A program made the position numbers and the translations under genes. Source: a virus (Duplodnaviria > Heunggongvirae > Uroviricota > Caudoviricetes). Taken from it: a DNA stretch of 7,890 nucleotides. Of this stretch, positions 1,697-7,855 are shown in pieces. The stretch's first letter is position 1. The number at the start of each line of letters is the position of its first letter. The notes below the pieces were generated by a model, which was given only the letters and a program-made list of their open reading frames with translations, was not told the origin of the DNA and ran no database searches. The stretch is taken from IMG/VR virus record IMGVR_UViG_3300014523_000016. One strand, written 5' to 3'.

Positions 1697-1721
1697 TATC
1701 CGATCGTANNNNNNNNNNNNT

Positions 1722-3339: not shown

Positions 3340-3403
3340 GGGTAACTCCTTATATTTGATTGCATAACGAAAACGCCTCTCGTGAAGCGTTATTGGTATG
3401 CAT

Positions 3404-3429
3404 ATAAAAAAGCCCTCACACTGGAGGGC
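3404..3429 (-). terminator. intrinsic terminator-like hairpin on the minus strand (tL-like), upstream of cIII
   Basis: Plus strand 3412..3417 gccctc and 3424..3429 gagggc form a 6-bp GC-rich stem with a 6-nt loop. The A-run at 3405..3411 gives a U-tract after the stem on the minus strand. The plus-strand tail is not T-rich, so it is unidirectional. Borders the N-run at 3435..3517. Confidence 0.45.
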
Positions 3430-3562
3430 AAAGANNNNNNNNNNNNNNNNNNNNNNNNNNNNNNNNNNNNNNNNNNNNNNNNNNNNNNNNNNNNNNNNNN
3501 NNNNNNNNNNNNNNNNNCAGTGCAGTGTTTATTCTGTTGTTAGTGCCAAAAATAAAGGCCGA

Positions 3563-4186
3563 CTATGCGGACTCGGAAGGAAGTCCAATCATCTTATTCA
3601 AATCTTCTACCCGTAAAGCAGGAAGTGCTGTACTTGCTTTGTCTGCTTCTTTTGGTAGCAATTCTTTGCTTTCAGGCCAAACTTCAATAAGTCGCTTAAC
3701 TGTTGTGACTGAGTTCAAAGCAGCCCATACATTTGATTCGATATCCTTTTTCTTGGCTTCAAGTTTTTGTTGCAATGCGCAGATTTCATCAAACCTTTTT
3801 GTTATTTCGTGTTCTGCATCAAACATGCATTTATCTTTGGTTGGAGTAGGGAGCAATATATCTTCGCCGTTGCCGTCTTTCCCATATGAATGCCATCCAA
3901 CCCTTCTGCCAGATACAGTCAGATAAATTGAAGTAGAACGAACATCGTATGAGTAAAATGAACATCCCATCTTTTCAAGTTCTTCACTTATAGCTACTAA
4001 CCTGGATGATAACTGATCCACTTCCTCAGTTTTCTTTTTACCGCCAAACGCAATAACTCTGGCGTCAAGTGCAAGCTGGTTCTTTAACTTTGTTACTTCT
4101 TCAAGTTCAGTGAAAACCCCAGACTTAATTAAAGCGTTACGAGCGATTTTCTCTTTCATTCTCGTAGTTAAGCGGATTGATGACAT
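3563..4186 (-). CDS. hypothetical protein (207 aa) between N and cIII; function unknown
   Basis: Within ORF track 3563..4246, whose first codon is TTG. I prefer ATG 4186 (MSSIRLTTRMKEKIARNALIKSGVF...) with SD GAGGA about 9 nt upstream. Lys/Glu-rich with predicted helical stretches, no transmembrane-like segment. No family recognised. Confidence 0.65.
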   Translation of the reverse strand: MSSIRLTTRMKEKIARNALIKSGVFTELEEVTKLKNQLALDARVIAFGGKKKTEEVDQLSSRLVAISEELEKMGCSFYSYDVRSTSIYLTVSGRRVGWHSYGKDGNGEDILLPTPTKDKCMFDAEHEITKRFDEICALQQKLEAKKKDIESNVWAALNSVTTVKRLIEVWPESKELLPKEADKASTALPALRVEDLNKMIGLPSESA

Positions 4187-4247
4187 ATTAATTCCTCTCA
4201 AATAAGTGGTTTGCTGCCTAATTTCATTTTCTGGCGACCAACACAAG

Positions 4248-4520
4248 TCATCTTGCTGTCAGTTGTTTTGATTTCCGATAGCCTGCCGCGTAAAGAGCTA
4301 CATTTGGAAGACAAGTTGAGCCTTCATATTTTCTGGTCAACGTTGTCAGTGTTATTACTTCTGCTCTCATTGCTGGTTTGCGCTTGCATTGCAAGACCAC
4401 TCGTGAAGGGGTTGGCCTGTGTAGCTTGTCGGAGCTGATCGCCTCCTGACTTTGCAGATTTGCACGACGAGCTCTACGGCGAGAAGCTGCGGTGCCTTTA
4501 AATTCTGTTTTTCTGGACAT
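4248..4520 (-). CDS. N: N-like transcription antitermination protein (90 aa) with N-terminal arginine-rich motif
   Basis: Within ORF track 4248..4592. ATG 4520 is preceded by GGAGG with a 5-nt spacer. Residues 13-25 SRRRARRANLQSQ parallel the lambda N arginine-rich motif (RRRERRAEKQAQW, from memory). Lies downstream of a nutL-like element and the pL/OL region. Confidence 0.8.
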   Translation of the reverse strand: MSRKTEFKGTAASRRRARRANLQSQEAISSDKLHRPTPSRVVLQCKRKPAMRAEVITLTTLTRKYEGSTCLPNVALYAAGYRKSKQLTAR

Positions 4521-4619
4521 GGATTCCTCCCGAATAAACTCTGGCGATGCAATCCCGAAGCTACTCCTGAGAGAGTTGCTTCGGCATTGCATCCCACAGC
4601 TTATGTGGTTGGGTGATCT

Positions 4620-4665
4620 GGCTTTTCAGCCACGTAGTCGAGTGTTCGACGTTGTTTAAAGAGCC
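4620..4665 (-). promoter_or_regulatory. nutL-like site: boxA, small spacer hairpin, boxB (read on the minus strand)
   Basis: Minus strand reads GGCTCTTTA (boxA-like, plus 4665..4657), a spacer hairpin GTCGA-ACAC-TCGAC (plus 4650..4637), and boxB GGCTGAAAAGCC (plus 4631..4620, stem GGCT/AGCC, GAAA loop). It aligns closely with the nutR-like element at 7428..7473 (shared GCTCTTT, AACAACG, CTACGT, GCTGAAAAGC). Confidence 0.7.
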
Positions 4666-4710
4666 TGCCAGTCTGTTCCGTTTGGCTTACAGCGTCCTGC
4701 TGATGAGTTA

Positions 4711-4829
4711 ACTTTATCGAAATGATAAATTAATGGCAATAGCAAAATGATAAATTGTTTTAGTTTTCAAATATCCTGTTGATTATTATGGTTTTTTATT
4801 TGATTGCAGGAATTTATCAGAAGGAATAA
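4711..4829 (-). promoter_or_regulatory. OL/pL-like region: 17-bp operator palindromes and a candidate leftward promoter
   Basis: Perfect 17-bp palindrome TTTATCGAAATGATAAA at 4713..4729. Weaker sites of the same type at 4738..4754 (aatagcAAAATGATAAA) and 4813..4829 (TTTATCagaagGAATAA). On the minus strand a candidate pL has -35 TTGCCA (plus 4739..4734), 17-bp spacer, and -10 TAAAGT (plus 4716..4711), overlapping the first operator. The same -10 hexamer and operator family recur at the OR side. Confidence 0.55.
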
Positions 4830-4937
4830 AGAGACTTGAGGGGGATCAGAATTGCGCGTTTTAGTGAGTTGTATCTGTTTATNNNNNNNNNNNNNNNNNN
4901 NNNNNNNNNNNNNNNNNNNNNGACGCTGTAACCAAAG

Positions 4938-4962
4938 AAACCCGGGCGCTGAGGCCGGGTTT
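4938..4962 (-). terminator. intrinsic terminator after the cI-cassette operon (hairpin looks bidirectional)
   Basis: 8-bp stem aaacccgg (4938..4945) pairing with ccgggttt (4955..4962), 9-nt loop. On the minus strand the stem is followed by TTTCTTTGG; on the plus strand by TTTTTCT. Sits 3 nt after the stop of the 258-aa cassette gene and before the masked run and OL region. Confidence 0.55.
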
Positions 4963-4964
4963 TT

Positions 4965-5741
4965 CTAGGCTACCAGAGACTCAATCCAAGAGTCTCTGGT
5001 ATGGAATGGCAACACTCGTGCGGTATCATTAAATAGTAGTGATAGTTGCTGTAGCTCAGGTGTTAACCCATCGCTGTCAACTATTACAAATCTATTGTTT
5101 ATGTCAGGAACGACCTGACTTAAGTCAACAATCTTCCCAACTGTTGAGTGGGCAGTATTCCATCCCTTACTGCTGGCAAGGCTTACCGTAAACCCGCGTT
5201 TTGGTGGTATTAGTCGAGACTCATTCCTTAGCGTTAACGGAACAGTAATGTTATGCCCACTAATACCTTTCACTTTTTCCTTTAAGGCTAGTCGCTTCCC
5301 AAGCCCTGCTGATTTTAAGTAACTGATTACACATTTTTCGAACTTATCGTCTTTGACCTCAGCATACCAATCAGCAGTTTGGGCGGATGCAAGAATCCCA
5401 CCACGAATAACATTTGCAGTTACCTGTCCAACGGACGACTCATCTGCCCACGCAGATATCTCTCCAGAGTCATTTAATGAAATTCCTTGCGAAGCGAGTG
5501 ATGACCTGATCAGATCAATTTTCTTTTTAGTCAGGTGGATGCCGCGTGATTCAATATTCATCAATGTATCGCAGTAGTCTGTAACCCTATACTGACCACT
5601 CATCTCTTGAACGAATACACTTATCTGCTCACAATCATCGTAGTATGTGAAGGGACTAATAACGCGCAGCAACGTGTCGCTCATTGGGTGGCATTCAAAC
5701 CCGAGCTTAGATATGACTGTTGAACACGTTACATTTCCCAT
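4965..5741 (-). CDS. hypothetical protein (258 aa), second gene of the cassette in the rexAB-equivalent position; function unknown
   Basis: ORF track 4965..5741. ATG 5741..5739 lies 13 nt upstream of, and out of frame with, the stop of the preceding gene (TAA 5731..5729), suggesting coupling. No transmembrane-like hydrophobic stretch and no motif I recognise. Hand-sampled GC in this cassette is about 37-38% versus about 57% in a cI line. Confidence 0.75.
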   Translation of the reverse strand: MGNVTCSTVISKLGFECHPMSDTLLRVISPFTYYDDCEQISVFVQEMSGQYRVTDYCDTLMNIESRGIHLTKKKIDLIRSSLASQGISLNDSGEISAWADESSVGQVTANVIRGGILASAQTADWYAEVKDDKFEKCVISYLKSAGLGKRLALKEKVKGISGHNITVPLTLRNESRLIPPKRGFTVSLASSKGWNTAHSTVGKIVDLSQVVPDINNRFVIVDSDGLTPELQQLSLLFNDTARVLPFHTRDSWIESLVA

Positions 5742-6271
5742 GATAGCTGACCTGATTTATCTTGATTAGGTAAAGGTGGGCTGCCTTCATATATGATATT
5801 AAGCGCCTCGCAAAAATAATTCCAGTAGCCAAAAAAATCATCTGGCTTGATGTTCGTTTCAAGCTTAAGTGCAATTTCTTCCCCAGCTGATTCGAAGTAC
5901 ATGTGATAGTGAGGACCTCGAGCCACCTCAACAAAATCTGGATGGTTCACTATAGATTTATTACGGTGTGGCTTGTTATCCGCAGGGTACGGGTCAAGCG
6001 CGTAAATGCGCCTGTCATGAAGAAACATCACAAATGAAATCTTCACTATATCCACCCCTTCAACGATAGGAGGACGCCAGTGAAGCATAAATCTTATGCC
6101 TGTGATTGGGTTGCCAATTTCATCAAAAGCTTTGAGATCCAATTTAAACCAGATTGGGGTTCGTCCCTCACTTCCGGTCCATGTAACTCCGCTAAAAGTT
6201 ACTTTTTTCAAGCGAGTAATAGCTTGGTCAACCTCTTTCTGGGTAGGCTTAAAGTCGCCTTTTTTAGCCAC
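5729..6271 (-). CDS. hypothetical protein (180 aa), first gene of the cassette downstream of cI; function unknown
   Basis: ORF track 5729..6271. Start is GTG 6271..6269 with a GGTGA SD-like motif 11-12 nt upstream; first in-frame ATG is about 60 codons in, so the true start is uncertain. Same strand as cI, 97 nt after the cI stop. Contains His/Tyr-rich stretch GPHYHMYF. No family recognised. Confidence 0.65.
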   Translation of the reverse strand: MAKKGDFKPTQKEVDQAITRLKKVTFSGVTWTGSEGRTPIWFKLDLKAFDEIGNPITGIRFMLHWRPPIVEGVDIVKISFVMFLHDRRIYALDPYPADNKPHRNKSIVNHPDFVEVARGPHYHMYFESAGEEIALKLETNIKPDDFFGYWNYFCEALNIIYEGSPPLPNQDKSGQLSWEM

Positions 6272-6368: not shown

Positions 6369-7073
6369 TCACGAACTTTTCAGCCACTCCCTTGCCTCGA
6401 TGTCATCCAGATGGCGAGATTGCTTCAGAATACCAGCCACATACTCCACCTTTGCTACTTGATGATAAGGCAACGTTATTGGCCTATGGTCCTGGTTGAT
6501 GCTTGTAAACTGGTATTCTCCGTCTCTGTCATAGCCAAGAACTTTGATCATGTTGTGTCCTTCAACGGTTCTGACAAACACCTCATCACCCGGGAATACT
6601 TTGGTGTTAGGCTCAATGAGTACATATTCTCCTGATTTTATTCTAGGCCACATGCTGTCTCCTTTCACACGAAGACCAAAGGCATCTGGATCATCGCTAT
6701 AAATCTTGAGCCACCCATCGCGCTCTTCGGTCATCTCGATGGCACCATCAACACCAAGAATTGCCTCACCAACCACGCGCACTAACCCTTTTCTTACCTG
6801 ACCGACAAAAGTTAAAGAATCTGAGCATGATGCAATTGGTGTTACATCATGTACCAAATCAAGCCACCCATTAGGTAACCCAAGTGCGGCTTCGAATTTT
6901 CTTGCTAGTTTATCCCCTATGTTTCGAGTGCTTTTTTCACCGGAGACTTGCGTGAGTTGAGAAGGGCTAACTCCAAGCTTATCGGCAAAGCTTGCATTAG
7001 TGTTACCCGCGATTTTTTTATGCTCATCTAGCAAAAACGCCAGATTCGATTTGCGAATATCTTTGTTTTCCAT
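6369..7073 (-). CDS. cI: cI-type prophage repressor (234 aa): N-terminal HTH plus C-terminal LexA/S24-like autocleavage domain
   Basis: ORF track 6369..7073. ATG 7073 is preceded by GAGGGAG. N-terminal HTH-like segment ASFADKLGVSPSQLTQVSGEK. C-terminal domain has the S24 serine motif GDSM and a Lys (MIKVL) 37 residues later, the LexA-type Ser-Lys dyad spacing. Divergent from cro across an operator region. Confidence 0.9.
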   Translation of the reverse strand: MENKDIRKSNLAFLLDEHKKIAGNTNASFADKLGVSPSQLTQVSGEKSTRNIGDKLARKFEAALGLPNGWLDLVHDVTPIASCSDSLTFVGQVRKGLVRVVGEAILGVDGAIEMTEERDGWLKIYSDDPDAFGLRVKGDSMWPRIKSGEYVLIEPNTKVFPGDEVFVRTVEGHNMIKVLGYDRDGEYQFTSINQDHRPITLPYHQVAKVEYVAGILKQSRHLDDIEAREWLKSS

Positions 7074-7100
7074 CCCACGATTCTCCCTCTATTTAGCAAA

Positions 7101-7177
7101 TGGATAAATACGCATTTTGATAAATCTCCATTGCAGTTTATTTATCAAAATGGTAAAGTTGCTCTGTGTGATAAACG
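7101..7177. promoter_or_regulatory. OR-like operator region between cI and cro
   Basis: Four GATAAA/TTTATC half-sites (7104..7109, 7119..7124, 7141..7146 on the other strand, 7170..7175). An 11-bp inverted repeat ttttgataaat (7115..7125) / atttatcaaaa (7140..7150). A 17-bp site TTTATCAAAATGGTAAA at 7141..7157 matches the OL palindrome type with one mismatch. pRM must lie here but I could not place its hexamers. Confidence 0.6.
7131..7159 (+). promoter_or_regulatory. candidate pR promoter for cro
   Basis: -35 TTGCAG (7131..7136), 17-bp spacer, -10 TAAAGT (7154..7159), about 28 nt upstream of the cro ATG and overlapping the 17-bp operator. Same -10 hexamer and spacing as the candidate pL. Hexamers are moderate matches only. 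Confidence 0.45.
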
Positions 7178-7186
7178 GAGGCACTA

Positions 7187-7420
7187 ATGAGTAATGAACT
7201 ACTACGCTGGCGAAAAGAGGCTTCTAGTGAGGAATGGAAGCGACTCGCCGCATTAGCGAATACTTCAGTTGGCTATCTTGATCAGATTGCATATGGGTTT
7301 CGAAGAGCTTCCCCAGATAAAGCGAATGCAATCGAAGAAGCCACTCGTAATTTCACGGGTTATAAACCTGTGAAAAAGGAAAATCTGGTGTTCGTATCGC
7401 GTAGAGCATCAGCAGCATAA
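7187..7420 (+). CDS. cro: Cro-like HTH regulator (77 aa)
   Basis: ORF track 7187..7420. ATG preceded by GGAGG with a 5-nt spacer. Divergent from cI across the operator region and followed by nutR and cII. HTH-like segment LAALANTSVGYLDQIAYGFRR. Assignment rests mainly on position. Confidence 0.7.
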   Translation: MSNELLRWRKEASSEEWKRLAALANTSVGYLDQIAYGFRRASPDKANAIEEATRNFTGYKPVKKENLVFVSRRASAA

Positions 7421-7427
7421 GTAACCC

Positions 7428-7473
7428 CGCTCTTTGTAACAACGGACATTCGTCCTACGTCGCTGAAAAGCGA
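7428..7473 (+). promoter_or_regulatory. nutR-like site: boxA, small spacer hairpin, boxB
   Basis: boxA-like CGCTCTTTG (7428..7436); spacer hairpin GGAC-ATTC-GTCC (7444..7455); boxB TCGCT-GAAA-AGCGA (7460..7473). Lies between cro and cII as in lambda and aligns with the nutL-like element on the opposite strand. Confidence 0.7.
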
Positions 7474-7558: not shown

Positions 7559-7855
7559 ATGGAACAAACAAGTTACAGCAAACTATCCCAGCGTGACGTT
7601 GATCGCGCAGAAACAGATTTACTCATCAACCTGTCAACGCTTACCCAGCGCGGTCTGGCAAAGATGATTGGCTGTCATGAATCGAAGATAAGCAGAACGG
7701 ACTGGAGGTTTATTGCTTCGGTCTTGTGTGCTTTCGGAATGGCATCAGACATCAGTCCGATTAGCAGGGCTTTTAAGTATGCATTGGATGGAATCACAAA
7801 GAAAAAATCCCCGGTTGCCGCCGGGGACTCTAAGCAAATTGATATGCAATTCTGA
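7559..7855 (+). CDS. cII: cII-like transcriptional activator (98 aa)
   Basis: ORF track 7559..7855. The central HESKISRTDWRF segment and the C-terminus TKKKSPVAAGDSKQIDMQF parallel lambda CII (...SQISRWKRDW... and TNKKRPAATERSEQIQMEF, from memory). Weak RBS. Position after cro and nutR is as in lambda. Confidence 0.85.
   Translation: MEQTSYSKLSQRDVDRAETDLLINLSTLTQRGLAKMIGCHESKISRTDWRFIASVLCAFGMASDISPISRAFKYALDGITKKKSPVAAGDSKQIDMQF

What the first reader, a model, noticed from the sequence alone, without database searches (positions are those of the whole stretch)
4711..4829. Shared operator and promoter architecture at OL and OR defines this phage's immunity specificity
OL contains a perfect 17-bp palindrome TTTATCGAAATGATAAA, and OR contains the same family (TTTATCAAAATGGTAAA at 7141..7157 plus further GATAAA half-sites). 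Candidate pL and pR both use -10 TAAAGT with a 17-bp spacer that the operator overlaps. The consensus TTTATC-N5-GATAAA differs from the lambda operator sequence as I remember it, which implies a distinct immunity group.
Basis: seen in the sequence. Interest (0 to 1): 0.4.

Follow-up and report, generated by a model that had tools for sequence, protein, structure and literature searches.

The report
Phage H-19B-type repressor operators
These are the left and right repressor-binding sites and early promoters of a lambda-like E. coli prophage whose repressor is identical to that of the Shiga-toxin phage H-19B, so the feature is real but was described in 2001.

Summary
TTTATCGAAATGATAAA lies at 4713-4729 and TTTATCAAAATGGTAAA at 7141-7157. 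The motif TTTATC-N5-GATAAA occurs 5 times at up to 2 mismatches, against 0.47 expected, and all five lie in the two control regions. Both candidate promoters read TTGnnn-17-TAAAGT and overlap an operator.

One descriptor is wrong: only the outer 6+6 bases are symmetric, so it is not a perfect 17-bp palindrome.

The interpretation, an immunity group distinct from lambda, is correct but not new:
- The repressor (6369-7073, minus strand) is 100% identical to phage H-19B cI, and cro is 97% identical.
- The OL and OR half-sites are the same as in H-19B, whose operator and early promoter regions were published by Shi and Friedman in 2001.

Evidence that the sites are functional:
- Among about 20 natural variants the strong half-sites almost never vary (2 of 54 positions, against 55 of 197 elsewhere).
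- Phage 933W shares the repressor's C-terminal domain but has a different N-terminal domain, and it lacks the motif.
- Pantoea and Sodalis relatives keep the same layout with a symmetric half-site variant, TTTAGC/GCTAAA.

My site map is OL1, OL2 and a degenerate OL3 candidate (4770-4786), plus four OR sites.

Verdict: ordinary and already known.

The parts
4713..4729 (.). OL1 (my numbering): TTTATC-GAAAT-GATAAA, the only site with two perfect half-sites. It covers the pL spacer and the first 4 bases of the -10.
   Evidence: Both half-sites are invariant in 23 distinct variants, and only the central bases vary.
4738..4754 (.). OL2: AATAGC-AAAAT-GATAAA, with one consensus half. The weak half overlaps the pL -35 by 2 bases.
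   Evidence: 3 mismatches. It is invariant in all variants, including the diverged L052. Its consensus half switches to TTTAGC in the Pantoea and Sodalis relatives L083, L084 and L086, while L085 keeps TTTATC.
4770..4786 (.). Degenerate OL3 candidate: AATATC-CTGTT-GATTAT, 4 mismatches.
   Evidence: It is the positional homologue of better sites in relatives, read on the pL strand: TTAATCATAAAGATAAA in L052, TAAATCATTCTGCTAAA in Pantoea and TTTATCAAAACAGTAAA in Sodalis. This is inference only.
4813..4829 (.). Probably not an operator.
   Evidence: The H-19B-type variants read TTCGACAGGATAAATAA here. It lies about 100 bp upstream of pL.
4734..4739 (-). pL -35 hexamer, TTGCCA.
   Evidence: One position varies (TTGTCA in 2 variants). 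TTGCCA is kept in L052, L083 and L085, with one-base variants in L084 (TTGCTA) and L086 (TTGCAT).
4711..4716 (-). pL -10 hexamer, TAAAGT. The predicted start is near 4704.
   Evidence: It reads TAAATT in Pantoea and Sodalis. The transcription start was not mapped here.
7092..7108 (.). OR3 (nearest cI): TTTAGC-AAATG-GATAAA.
   Evidence: 1 mismatch. One singleton change in 20 variants. The same TTTAGC...G(A/G)TAAA hybrid site is present in L052, Pantoea and Sodalis.
7108..7124 (.). OR2: ATACGC-ATTTT-GATAAA. It abuts OR3 and shares base 7108 with it.
   Evidence: The GATAAA half is invariant, while the left half and centre vary. The abutting OR3/OR2 block is conserved in all distant relatives.
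7131..7136 (+). pR -35 hexamer, TTGCAG.
   Evidence: TTG is conserved, and positions 5-6 vary (TTGCGG in H-19B, TTGCGT in others). TTGCTT, TTGATT or TTGCTA sits at the same offset in relatives.
7141..7157 (.). OR1: TTTATC-AAAAT-GGTAAA. It fills the pR spacer and overlaps the -10.
   Evidence: 1 mismatch. Both half-sites are invariant in 20 variants.
7154..7159 (+). pR -10 hexamer, TAAAGT, preceded by TGG. The predicted start is near 7166.
   Evidence: It is invariant in 20 variants and reads TAAACT in relatives. The transcription start was not mapped here.
7159..7175 (.). Fourth OR site: TTGCTC-TGTGT-GATAAA, lying over the predicted pR start and the cro leader.
   Evidence: 2 mismatches. The GATAAA half is conserved in 19 of 20 variants. 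The site is absent from L052, Pantoea and Sodalis. A review states that H-19B has four operator sites in OR (PMC8065619).
6369..7073 (-). cI repressor, 234 aa.
   Evidence: 100% identical to H-19B cI. Peptidase_S24 domain, E 4e-16. The N-terminal domain gives a weak HTH_3 match, E 0.004. PHROG 4, transcriptional repressor.
7187..7420 (+). cro, 77 aa.
   Evidence: 75 of 77 residues identical to H-19B Cro.
4248..4520 (-). N antiterminator, the first gene of the pL operon.
   Evidence: Pfam N_peptide, E 3e-32. Only about 41% identical to H-19B and 933W N, and 100% identical to N of phages such as Stx2a_F349.
4620..4664 (-). nutL: boxA GCTCTTTAAACAA, hairpin GTCGAACACTCGAC, boxB GGCTGAAAAGCC.
   Evidence: Read from the sequence. 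It supports leftward transcription from pL. No Rfam family matched.
4938..4970 (.). GC hairpin flanked by A and T runs (AAACCCGGGCGCTGAGGCCGGGTTTTT). Probably the terminator of the cI-moron transcript.
   Evidence: Read from the sequence. Its core, CAAAGAAA..GGCGCTGAGGCCGGGT, is conserved in H-19B. The terminator scan did not flag it, because its loop exceeds the 8-nt limit.

Best explanation
The interval is the OL/pL control region of a lambdoid E. coli prophage that carries the immunity module of Shiga-toxin phage H-19B. Its partner OR/pR lies at 7092-7175.

Proposed mechanism: dimers of the cI repressor bind 17-bp sites of the form TTTATC-N5-GATAAA. The half-site centres are 11 bp apart, about one helical turn, and the centre of the site is free to vary. 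cI has a helix-turn-helix-type N-terminal domain and an S24 self-cleaving C-terminal domain.

- At OL, OL1 covers the spacer and part of the -10 of the leftward promoter pL, and OL2 touches its -35.
- At OR, OR1 covers the spacer and part of the -10 of the rightward promoter pR. A fourth, lineage-specific site covers the pR start. OR2 and OR3 lie next to cI, where the maintenance promoter should be.
- Occupied sites shut off N and cro and keep the prophage silent. RecA-stimulated self-cleavage of cI would free both promoters.

Shown here: the sequences and their enrichment, their conservation pattern, their dependence on the N-terminal domain type, and identity with H-19B.

Inferred from the lambdoid paradigm and the H-19B literature: actual binding, the transcription starts, the order of site occupancy and the position of pRM.
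For: - Identity with H-19B: cI is 100% identical to H-19B cI and cro is 97% identical. OR is 93.6% identical and OL about 85%, with the strong TTTATC/GATAAA half-sites unchanged.
- Enrichment: 3 sites at up to 1 mismatch against 0.01 expected, and 5 at up to 2 mismatches against 0.47 expected. All lie in OL or OR.
- Phylogenetic footprint: across 20 distinct OR and 23 distinct OL variants from 50 IMG/VR loci plus H-19B, 2 of 54 strong half-site positions vary. Elsewhere in the same intergenic DNA 55 of 197 vary, including 7 of 30 central positions (Fisher p = 4e-5).
- Natural domain-swap control: 933W cI shares residues 81-234 at 95% identity but has an unrelated N-terminal domain. Of 29 loci matched only by the C-terminal domain (one, L054, checked and identical to 933W cI), 27 have no site at up to 1 mismatch. 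Of 50 H-19B-type loci, 46 have three.
- Distant relatives: the L052 N-terminal domain is 49% identical, and those of the Pantoea and Sodalis loci are 53-63% identical. All keep the order OR3, OR2, -35, OR1/-10 and OL3, OL2/-35, OL1/-10. The Pantoea and Sodalis loci mostly use the symmetric variant TTTAGC-N5-GCTAAA.
- Promoter context: pL is found by the consensus scan, TTG-17-TAAAsT is conserved at both promoters in all relatives, and nutL and N lie downstream of pL.
- Literature: a review states that H-19B has four operator sites in OR, citing Shi and Friedman 2001 (PMC8065619). That equals the number I find.
Against: - No binding or transcription data were generated here, and the primary H-19B operator paper is not held in the library. 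I could not compare my site boundaries or numbering with the footprints.
- pR is a weak consensus match (7 of 12) and was not called by the scan.
- The N-terminal helix-turn-helix assignment rests on a sub-threshold HTH_3 match (E 0.004, 17.6 bits against a cut-off of 23). The structure prediction failed.
- The variants in the footprint analysis are closely related, so the columns are not fully independent.
- OR2, OL2 and the fourth OR site each have only one good half-site.
Confidence: 0.93

Rival explanations
1. The motif matches are a by-product of AT-rich intergenic DNA and promoter hexamers. TAAA is part of the -10 TAAAGT, so the sites would not be dedicated repressor sites.
For: Both regions are AT-rich. 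At up to 3 mismatches the motif is barely enriched (11 against 5.5 expected). At OR1 and OL1 the right and left half overlap the -10, so part of the conservation could come from the promoter.
Against: Enrichment is strong at up to 1 and up to 2 mismatches. Half-sites that do not overlap any predicted hexamer (OR3, OR2, the distal halves of OL1 and OR1) are just as invariant. The motif is absent from 933W-type loci, which have equally AT-rich control regions. Both halves change together in Pantoea and Sodalis.
Confidence: 0.02
2. The sites are real protein-binding sites, but mainly for a protein other than cI, such as Cro alone or a host nucleoid protein like IHF or Fis.
For: In lambdoid switches Cro binds the same operators, so sequence alone cannot separate cI sites from Cro sites. 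The cro gene co-varies with cI in all relatives.
Against: Presence of the motif tracks the cI N-terminal domain type. The multi-site layout overlapping pL, where Cro has no special role beyond repression, matches the repressor paradigm. Shared use by Cro does not contradict the main explanation.
Confidence: 0.03
3. A rival on extent only: the match at 4813-4829, which sets the right end of the reported interval, is a functional distal third OL operator.
For: It has 2 mismatches and one perfect TTTATC half. It is conserved within the window-like subgroup, and H-19B-type variants carry a GATAAA a few bases away (aligned to 4821-4826).
Against: The sequence is not conserved between subgroups. It sits about 100 bp upstream of pL, far from the polymerase. 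In relatives the positional OL3 is at the equivalent of 4770-4786 instead.
Confidence: 0.15

Closest known systems
[quoted passage not shown]
   Same: - The cI protein is identical and Cro is 97% identical.
- The strong TTTATC/GATAAA half-sites are unchanged at OL1, OL2 and all four OR sites; one base differs in the weak left half of the fourth OR site.
- Both promoters use the same -10, TAAAGT.
- OR has four sites, as a review reports for H-19B (PMC8065619).
   Different: - There are a few substitutions in spacers, in the centres of sites and in the pR -35 (TTGCAG here, TTGCGG in H-19B).
- Homology to H-19B ends at about 4692, roughly 12 nt past the predicted pL start.
- Beyond that point this prophage has a different N allele and nutL.
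- A different two-gene insert lies between the terminator and cI.
Phage lambda OL/OR with cI and Cro
   Same: - The gene order is the same: N, nutL, pL/OL, accessory genes, cI, OR, cro, nutR, cII.
- Operators are 17-bp partially symmetric sites that overlap the -35 and -10 hexamers.
- The repressor carries an S24 self-cleaving domain.
   Different: - The operator sequence is unrelated. Lambda uses TATCACCGC-type half-sites.
- The repressor N-terminal domain is unrelated.
- OR has four sites, with OR2 and OR3 abutting (16 bp centre to centre) and a site over the pR start. Lambda has three sites about 23-24 bp apart.
- cI here has a Shine-Dalgarno sequence upstream.
Phage 933W repressor and operators (Tyler et al. 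2004; Koudelka laboratory)
   Same: - The repressor C-terminal domain is 95% identical over residues 81-234.
- A review states that this domain is highly divergent from other lambdoid repressors, that 933W repressor does not bind cooperatively, and that H-19B presumably behaves alike (PMC3202840).
   Different: - The N-terminal domain is unrelated.
- The annotated operators are different and 15 bp long.
- The TTTATC-N5-GATAAA motif is absent from loci of this type.

Membership tests
H-19B immunity group | Repressor cI the same as H-19B cI, especially the DNA-binding N-terminal domain | tested here: met
   234 of 234 residues identical to AAD04644 of AF034975.
H-19B immunity group | Cro of the same type | tested here: met
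   75 of 77 residues identical.
H-19B immunity group | The same operator half-sites at OL and OR | tested here: met
   All TTTATC/GATAAA half-sites are identical in the pairwise alignments. Differences lie in the site centres, the spacers and the weak left half of the fourth OR site.
H-19B immunity group | Four repressor sites in OR | tested here: met
   Four motif sites at 7092-7108, 7108-7124, 7141-7157 and 7159-7175. The number matches the review statement (PMC8065619). The published coordinates could not be checked, because the paper is not held.
H-19B immunity group | Functional homoimmunity: a lysogen excludes H-19B and is repressed by H-19B cI | not testable with these tools
   Needs plating or reporter assays.
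Lambdoid cI/Cro genetic switch | Divergent cI and cro with a multi-site operator between them, plus a second operator at the promoter of N | tested here: met
   cI 6369-7073 (minus strand), cro 7187-7420 (plus strand), OR sites between them. OL sites lie upstream of N (4248-4520, minus strand) and nutL.
Lambdoid cI/Cro genetic switch | Repressor with an S24 (LexA-like) self-cleavage domain | tested here: met
   Peptidase_S24, E 3.8e-16, 59 bits against a cut-off of 23.
Lambdoid cI/Cro genetic switch | Helix-turn-helix N-terminal DNA-binding domain | tested here: inconclusive
   HTH_3 E 0.004, 17.6 bits, below the cut-off of 23. No informative PDB relative. The single-sequence AlphaFold model is unusable, pLDDT 39.
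Lambda immunity group | Lambda-type operators (TATCACCGC half-sites) and a lambda-like cI N-terminal domain | tested here: not met
   No lambda-type operator in the window, and no motif site in lambda OL or OR. The cI proteins align only weakly in the S24 region.
933W immunity group | 933W-type N-terminal domain and operators | tested here: not met
   Only residues 81-234 align. Of the 29 loci matched only by the C-terminal domain, 27 have no motif site at up to 1 mismatch.

The most novel reading that the evidence does not exclude
The H-19B operator belongs to a wider family in which repressor and operator have co-evolved, reaching Pantoea and Sodalis prophages.

- The layout of OR3, OR2, OR1 and of OL3, OL2, OL1 is fixed across the family.
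- The preferred half-site has switched symmetrically, from TTTATC/GATAAA to TTTAGC/GCTAAA.
- OR3 stays a TTTAGC...GATAAA hybrid in both lineages (TTTAGC...GGTAAA in Sodalis), so it is one mismatch from optimum in each.

If the two half-site types are distinct immunities, this is a natural single-base-pair specificity switch. It could be used to ask which residue of the recognition helix reads position 5.

Separately, this prophage is a new mosaic. It combines H-19B immunity with a different N/nut allele and a candidate defence pair in the position of rexAB.
Probability: 0.4. Interest if true: 0.3.

Novelty: already known. Interest (0 to 1): 0.1.

Why it matters
Immunity type decides which lambdoid and Stx phages can superinfect or co-reside in a strain, and how easily a prophage is induced. 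H-19B-type immunity is common: the 113-bp OR region is present at 90% identity or more in 216 of 5,426 complete E. coli genomes.

For this window the practical value is annotation. The prophage can be labelled as H-19B immunity, with pL, pR and seven or eight operator sites placed.

Nothing here changes what is known about repressor-operator switches. The small additions are the comparative footprint and the half-site variant in Pantoea and Sodalis.

Tried and rejected
- **Primary papers.** I tried to read Shi and Friedman 2001 (PubMed 11532127) and Tyler et al. 2004 (PMC524894). Neither is held, so the published footprint coordinates, transcription starts and site names could not be compared. 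I rely on one review sentence for the four OR sites.
- **Operator strings in papers.** A full-text search for the four operator strings found none.
- **Other reviews.** The other reviews mentioning H-19B give no operator detail.
- **GenBank records.** The records for H-19B and BP-4795 annotate no operators.
- **Structure prediction.** The single-sequence AlphaFold2 model of cI had mean pLDDT 39 and pTM 0.32. It was unusable, so no fold search was run. Alignments containing locus-derived sequences are not accepted by that tool.
- **Solved structures.** The search gave only spurious pseudoazurin hits for cI and marginal Cro hits.
- **Rfam.** The scan of the window found no family at gathering score.
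- **pRM.** I tried to place pRM by eye on the minus strand between 7074 and 7157. No hexamer pair is both convincing and conserved, so pRM is left unassigned.
- **Chance and the 4813-4829 site.** I considered and rejected the reading that the motif is AT-rich chance, and the reading that 4813-4829 is a conserved operator.

Full report
**What is in the sequence.**
The window is the early region of a lambdoid prophage. From left to right it contains the following.
- Leftward early genes.
- An N antiterminator at 4248-4520 on the minus strand (Pfam N_peptide, E 3e-32).
- An intergenic region, 4593-4964, that holds the finding.
- Two accessory genes on the minus strand, at 4965-5741 and 5729-6271.
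- A repressor gene at 6369-7073 on the minus strand (Peptidase_S24, E 4e-16).
- A 113-bp intergenic region, 7074-7186.
- cro at 7187-7420 and cII at 7559-7855 (Phage_CII, E 2e-31).

- TTTATCGAAATGATAAA lies at 4713-4729.
- TTTATCAAAATGGTAAA lies at 7141-7157.
- The hexamer pair for pL, on the minus strand, is TTGCCA (4739-4734), 17 nt, TAAAGT (4716-4711).
- The hexamer pair for pR is TTGCAG (7131-7136), 17 nt, TAAAGT (7154-7159).

The promoter scan finds pL at 9 of 12. It does not call pR, which scores 7 of 12, although TGG sits directly upstream of its -10.

The "perfect 17-bp palindrome" is really 6+6 perfect inverted repeats around an asymmetric 5-bp centre.

**Is it more than chance?**
TTTATC-N5-GATAAA gives 3 matches at up to 1 mismatch, against 0.01 expected. 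It gives 5 matches at up to 2 mismatches, against 0.47 expected. No shuffle out of 200 reached either count. All five matches lie in the two control regions. At up to 3 mismatches the signal fades to 11 against 5.5 expected, so the weak sites need other support.

**What it is.**
- Megablast places the region in the family of Stx phages H-19B and BP-4795.
- The repressor is 234 of 234 residues identical to H-19B cI, and Cro is 75 of 77 identical.
- OR is 93.6% identical to H-19B and OL about 85%. The strong TTTATC/GATAAA half-sites are unchanged.
- The H-19B operator and early promoter regions were the subject of Shi and Friedman 2001. That paper is not held here, but a review citing it says that H-19B has four operator sites in OR (PMC8065619).
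- I find four sites in OR:
  - 7092-7108, TTTAGCAAATGGATAAA
  - 7108-7124, ATACGCATTTTGATAAA
  - 7141-7157, TTTATCAAAATGGTAAA
  - 7159-7175, TTGCTCTGTGTGATAAA
- In OL I find 4713-4729 and 4738-4754 (AATAGCAAAATGATAAA).

The site names OL1-OL3 and OR1-OR3 follow lambda's convention and are mine.

**Comparative tests.**
*Variation among H-19B-type variants.* Fifty IMG/VR loci encode this repressor at 98-100% identity. Together with H-19B they give 20 distinct OR and 23 distinct OL variants. Across them only 2 of 54 strong half-site positions vary, and both are singletons. By comparison, 7 of 30 central positions, 5 of 17 weak-half positions and 43 of 150 other intergenic positions vary (Fisher p = 4e-5 for strong half-sites against the rest). 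The -10 of pR is invariant. The -35 hexamers keep TTG.

*Natural domain-swap control.* Phage 933W cI shares residues 81-234 at 95% identity but has an unrelated N-terminal domain. Of 29 loci matched only by the C-terminal domain (L054 checked as identical to 933W cI), 27 have no site at up to 1 mismatch. Of 50 H-19B-type loci, 46 have three. The motif therefore follows the N-terminal domain, as expected for a DNA-binding specificity.

*Lambda control.* Lambda's annotated operators and cI are unrelated to these.

*Distant relatives.* L052 has an N-terminal domain 49% identical, and four Pantoea and Sodalis prophages have domains 53-63% identical with a different C-terminal domain. All keep the same order and spacing: OR3 abutting OR2, then the pR -35 (TTGnnn), then OR1 overlapping a TAAAsT -10. 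On the left they keep OL3, OL2 overlapping TTGCCA or a one-base variant of it, then OL1 overlapping TAAAkT. In Pantoea and Sodalis most sites read TTTAGC-N5-GCTAAA, so both halves changed together. That is the signature of a symmetric dimer site. OR3 is a TTTAGC...GATAAA hybrid in these lineages (TTTAGC...GGTAAA in Sodalis).

- The match at 4813-4829 has 2 mismatches and reads TTCGACAGGATAAATAA in H-19B-type variants. It lies about 100 bp upstream of pL, and I do not count it as an operator.
- A better but degenerate OL3 candidate is 4770-4786 (AATATCCTGTTGATTAT). It is the positional homologue of good sites in L052, Pantoea and Sodalis.
- The fourth OR site is absent from those relatives, so it is specific to the H-19B lineage.

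**Mechanism.**
*Shown here:*
- The sites are present, enriched and conserved.
- They overlap both predicted promoters.
- They depend on the N-terminal domain type.
- nutL lies downstream of pL, with boxA GCTCTTTAAACAA, a hairpin and boxB GGCTGAAAAGCC.

*Inferred from the lambdoid paradigm:*
- cI dimers at OL1 and OL2 and at OR1 plus the fourth site exclude RNA polymerase from pL and pR.
- OR2 and OR3 regulate cI's own promoter.
- RecA-stimulated S24 self-cleavage lifts repression.

A review notes that the 933W repressor does not bind cooperatively. It attributes this to the divergent C-terminal domain that 933W shares with H-19B (PMC3202840). If the same holds here, the extra site over the pR start may substitute for cooperativity. 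That is speculation.

The helix-turn-helix assignment is weak: HTH_3 gives E 0.004, and the AlphaFold model failed. I could not place pRM.

**Comparison with what is known, and novelty.**
This is a member of the H-19B immunity group. Every defining feature that can be tested from sequence is met. It is not lambda immunity and not 933W immunity.

The prophage is a mosaic. Homology to H-19B stops about 12 nt beyond the predicted pL start. Its N allele is that of other Stx2a phages. The genes between the terminator and cI differ from those of H-19B.

The 113-bp OR region occurs at 90% identity or more in 216 of 5,426 complete E. coli genomes.

**Verdict.**
The feature is real and correctly interpreted, and it is already known. 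Interest is low.

Noticed in passing
window 4965-6271 (minus strand): A two-gene insert sits between the terminator and cI, in the position of lambda rexAB. One gene encodes a 180-aa protein (weak DUF6978; PADLOC PDC-M24A, E 4e-4; phrog_2017). The other encodes a 258-aa DUF1828 protein (PDC-M24B, E 5e-7; phrog_1960). Together they look like a candidate anti-phage defence pair expressed from the prophage. H-19B and BP-4795 carry different genes here.
   Followed up: partly
window 4620-4664 (minus strand) and 7428-7472 (plus strand): The N allele is only about 41% identical to H-19B N, and both nut sites carry a boxB with loop GAAA(A): GGCTGAAAAGCC in nutL and CGCTGAAAAGCG in nutR. H-19B nutR reads CGCTGACAAAGCG, so the window's nutR differs from it by a single-base deletion in the loop that matches the window's nutL. 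The stem differs between nutL and nutR by a compensatory G-C to C-G swap. This looks like a co-change of N and boxB.
   Followed up: partly
window about 4692: Similarity to H-19B ends abruptly about 12 nt downstream of the predicted pL start. This is a recombination boundary of the immunity module that lies inside the pL transcript leader.
   Followed up: partly
L083, L084, L085 (Pantoea) and L086 (Sodalis), about 3400-3500 and the OL sites at 6168, 6479, 6757 and 5069: Prophages in other genera have a related repressor N-terminal domain and Cro, and the same operator layout. Their half-site is TTTAGC/GCTAAA, and they lack the fourth OR site. OR3 remains a TTTAGC...GATAAA hybrid (GGTAAA in Sodalis).
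   Followed up: partly
window 7092-7124: OR3 and OR2 abut and share one base, with centres 16 bp apart, roughly on opposite faces of the helix. This composite, TTTAGC-N5-GrTAAATAynC-N5-GmTAAA, is conserved in every relative examined. The spacing is unlike lambda's 23-24 bp, and its consequence for pRM control is unexplained.
   Followed up: no
window 3563-4189 (minus strand): The gene downstream of N encodes an Nmad5 (nucleotide modification associated domain 5) protein, Pfam E 4e-72.
   Followed up: no
window 4938-4970: A GC-rich hairpin is flanked by an A run and a T run (AAACCCGGGCGCTGAGGCCGGGTTTTT). It could terminate in both directions, and its core is conserved in H-19B. It is probably the terminator of the cI-moron transcript and insulates OL. 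The terminator scan missed it because its loop is 9 nt.
   Followed up: no
window 1709-1720, 3435-3517, 4883-4921: There are three runs of N (12, 83 and 39 bases). The third lies between OL and the terminator. In H-19B the corresponding 39 bases are ordinary AT-rich sequence.
   Followed up: no
window 7071-7092 (minus strand): cI is preceded by a good Shine-Dalgarno sequence (GAGGGAG), unlike lambda's leaderless pRM transcript. Depending on where pRM starts, the Shine-Dalgarno sequence might be present only on transcripts from an upstream establishment promoter.
   Followed up: no
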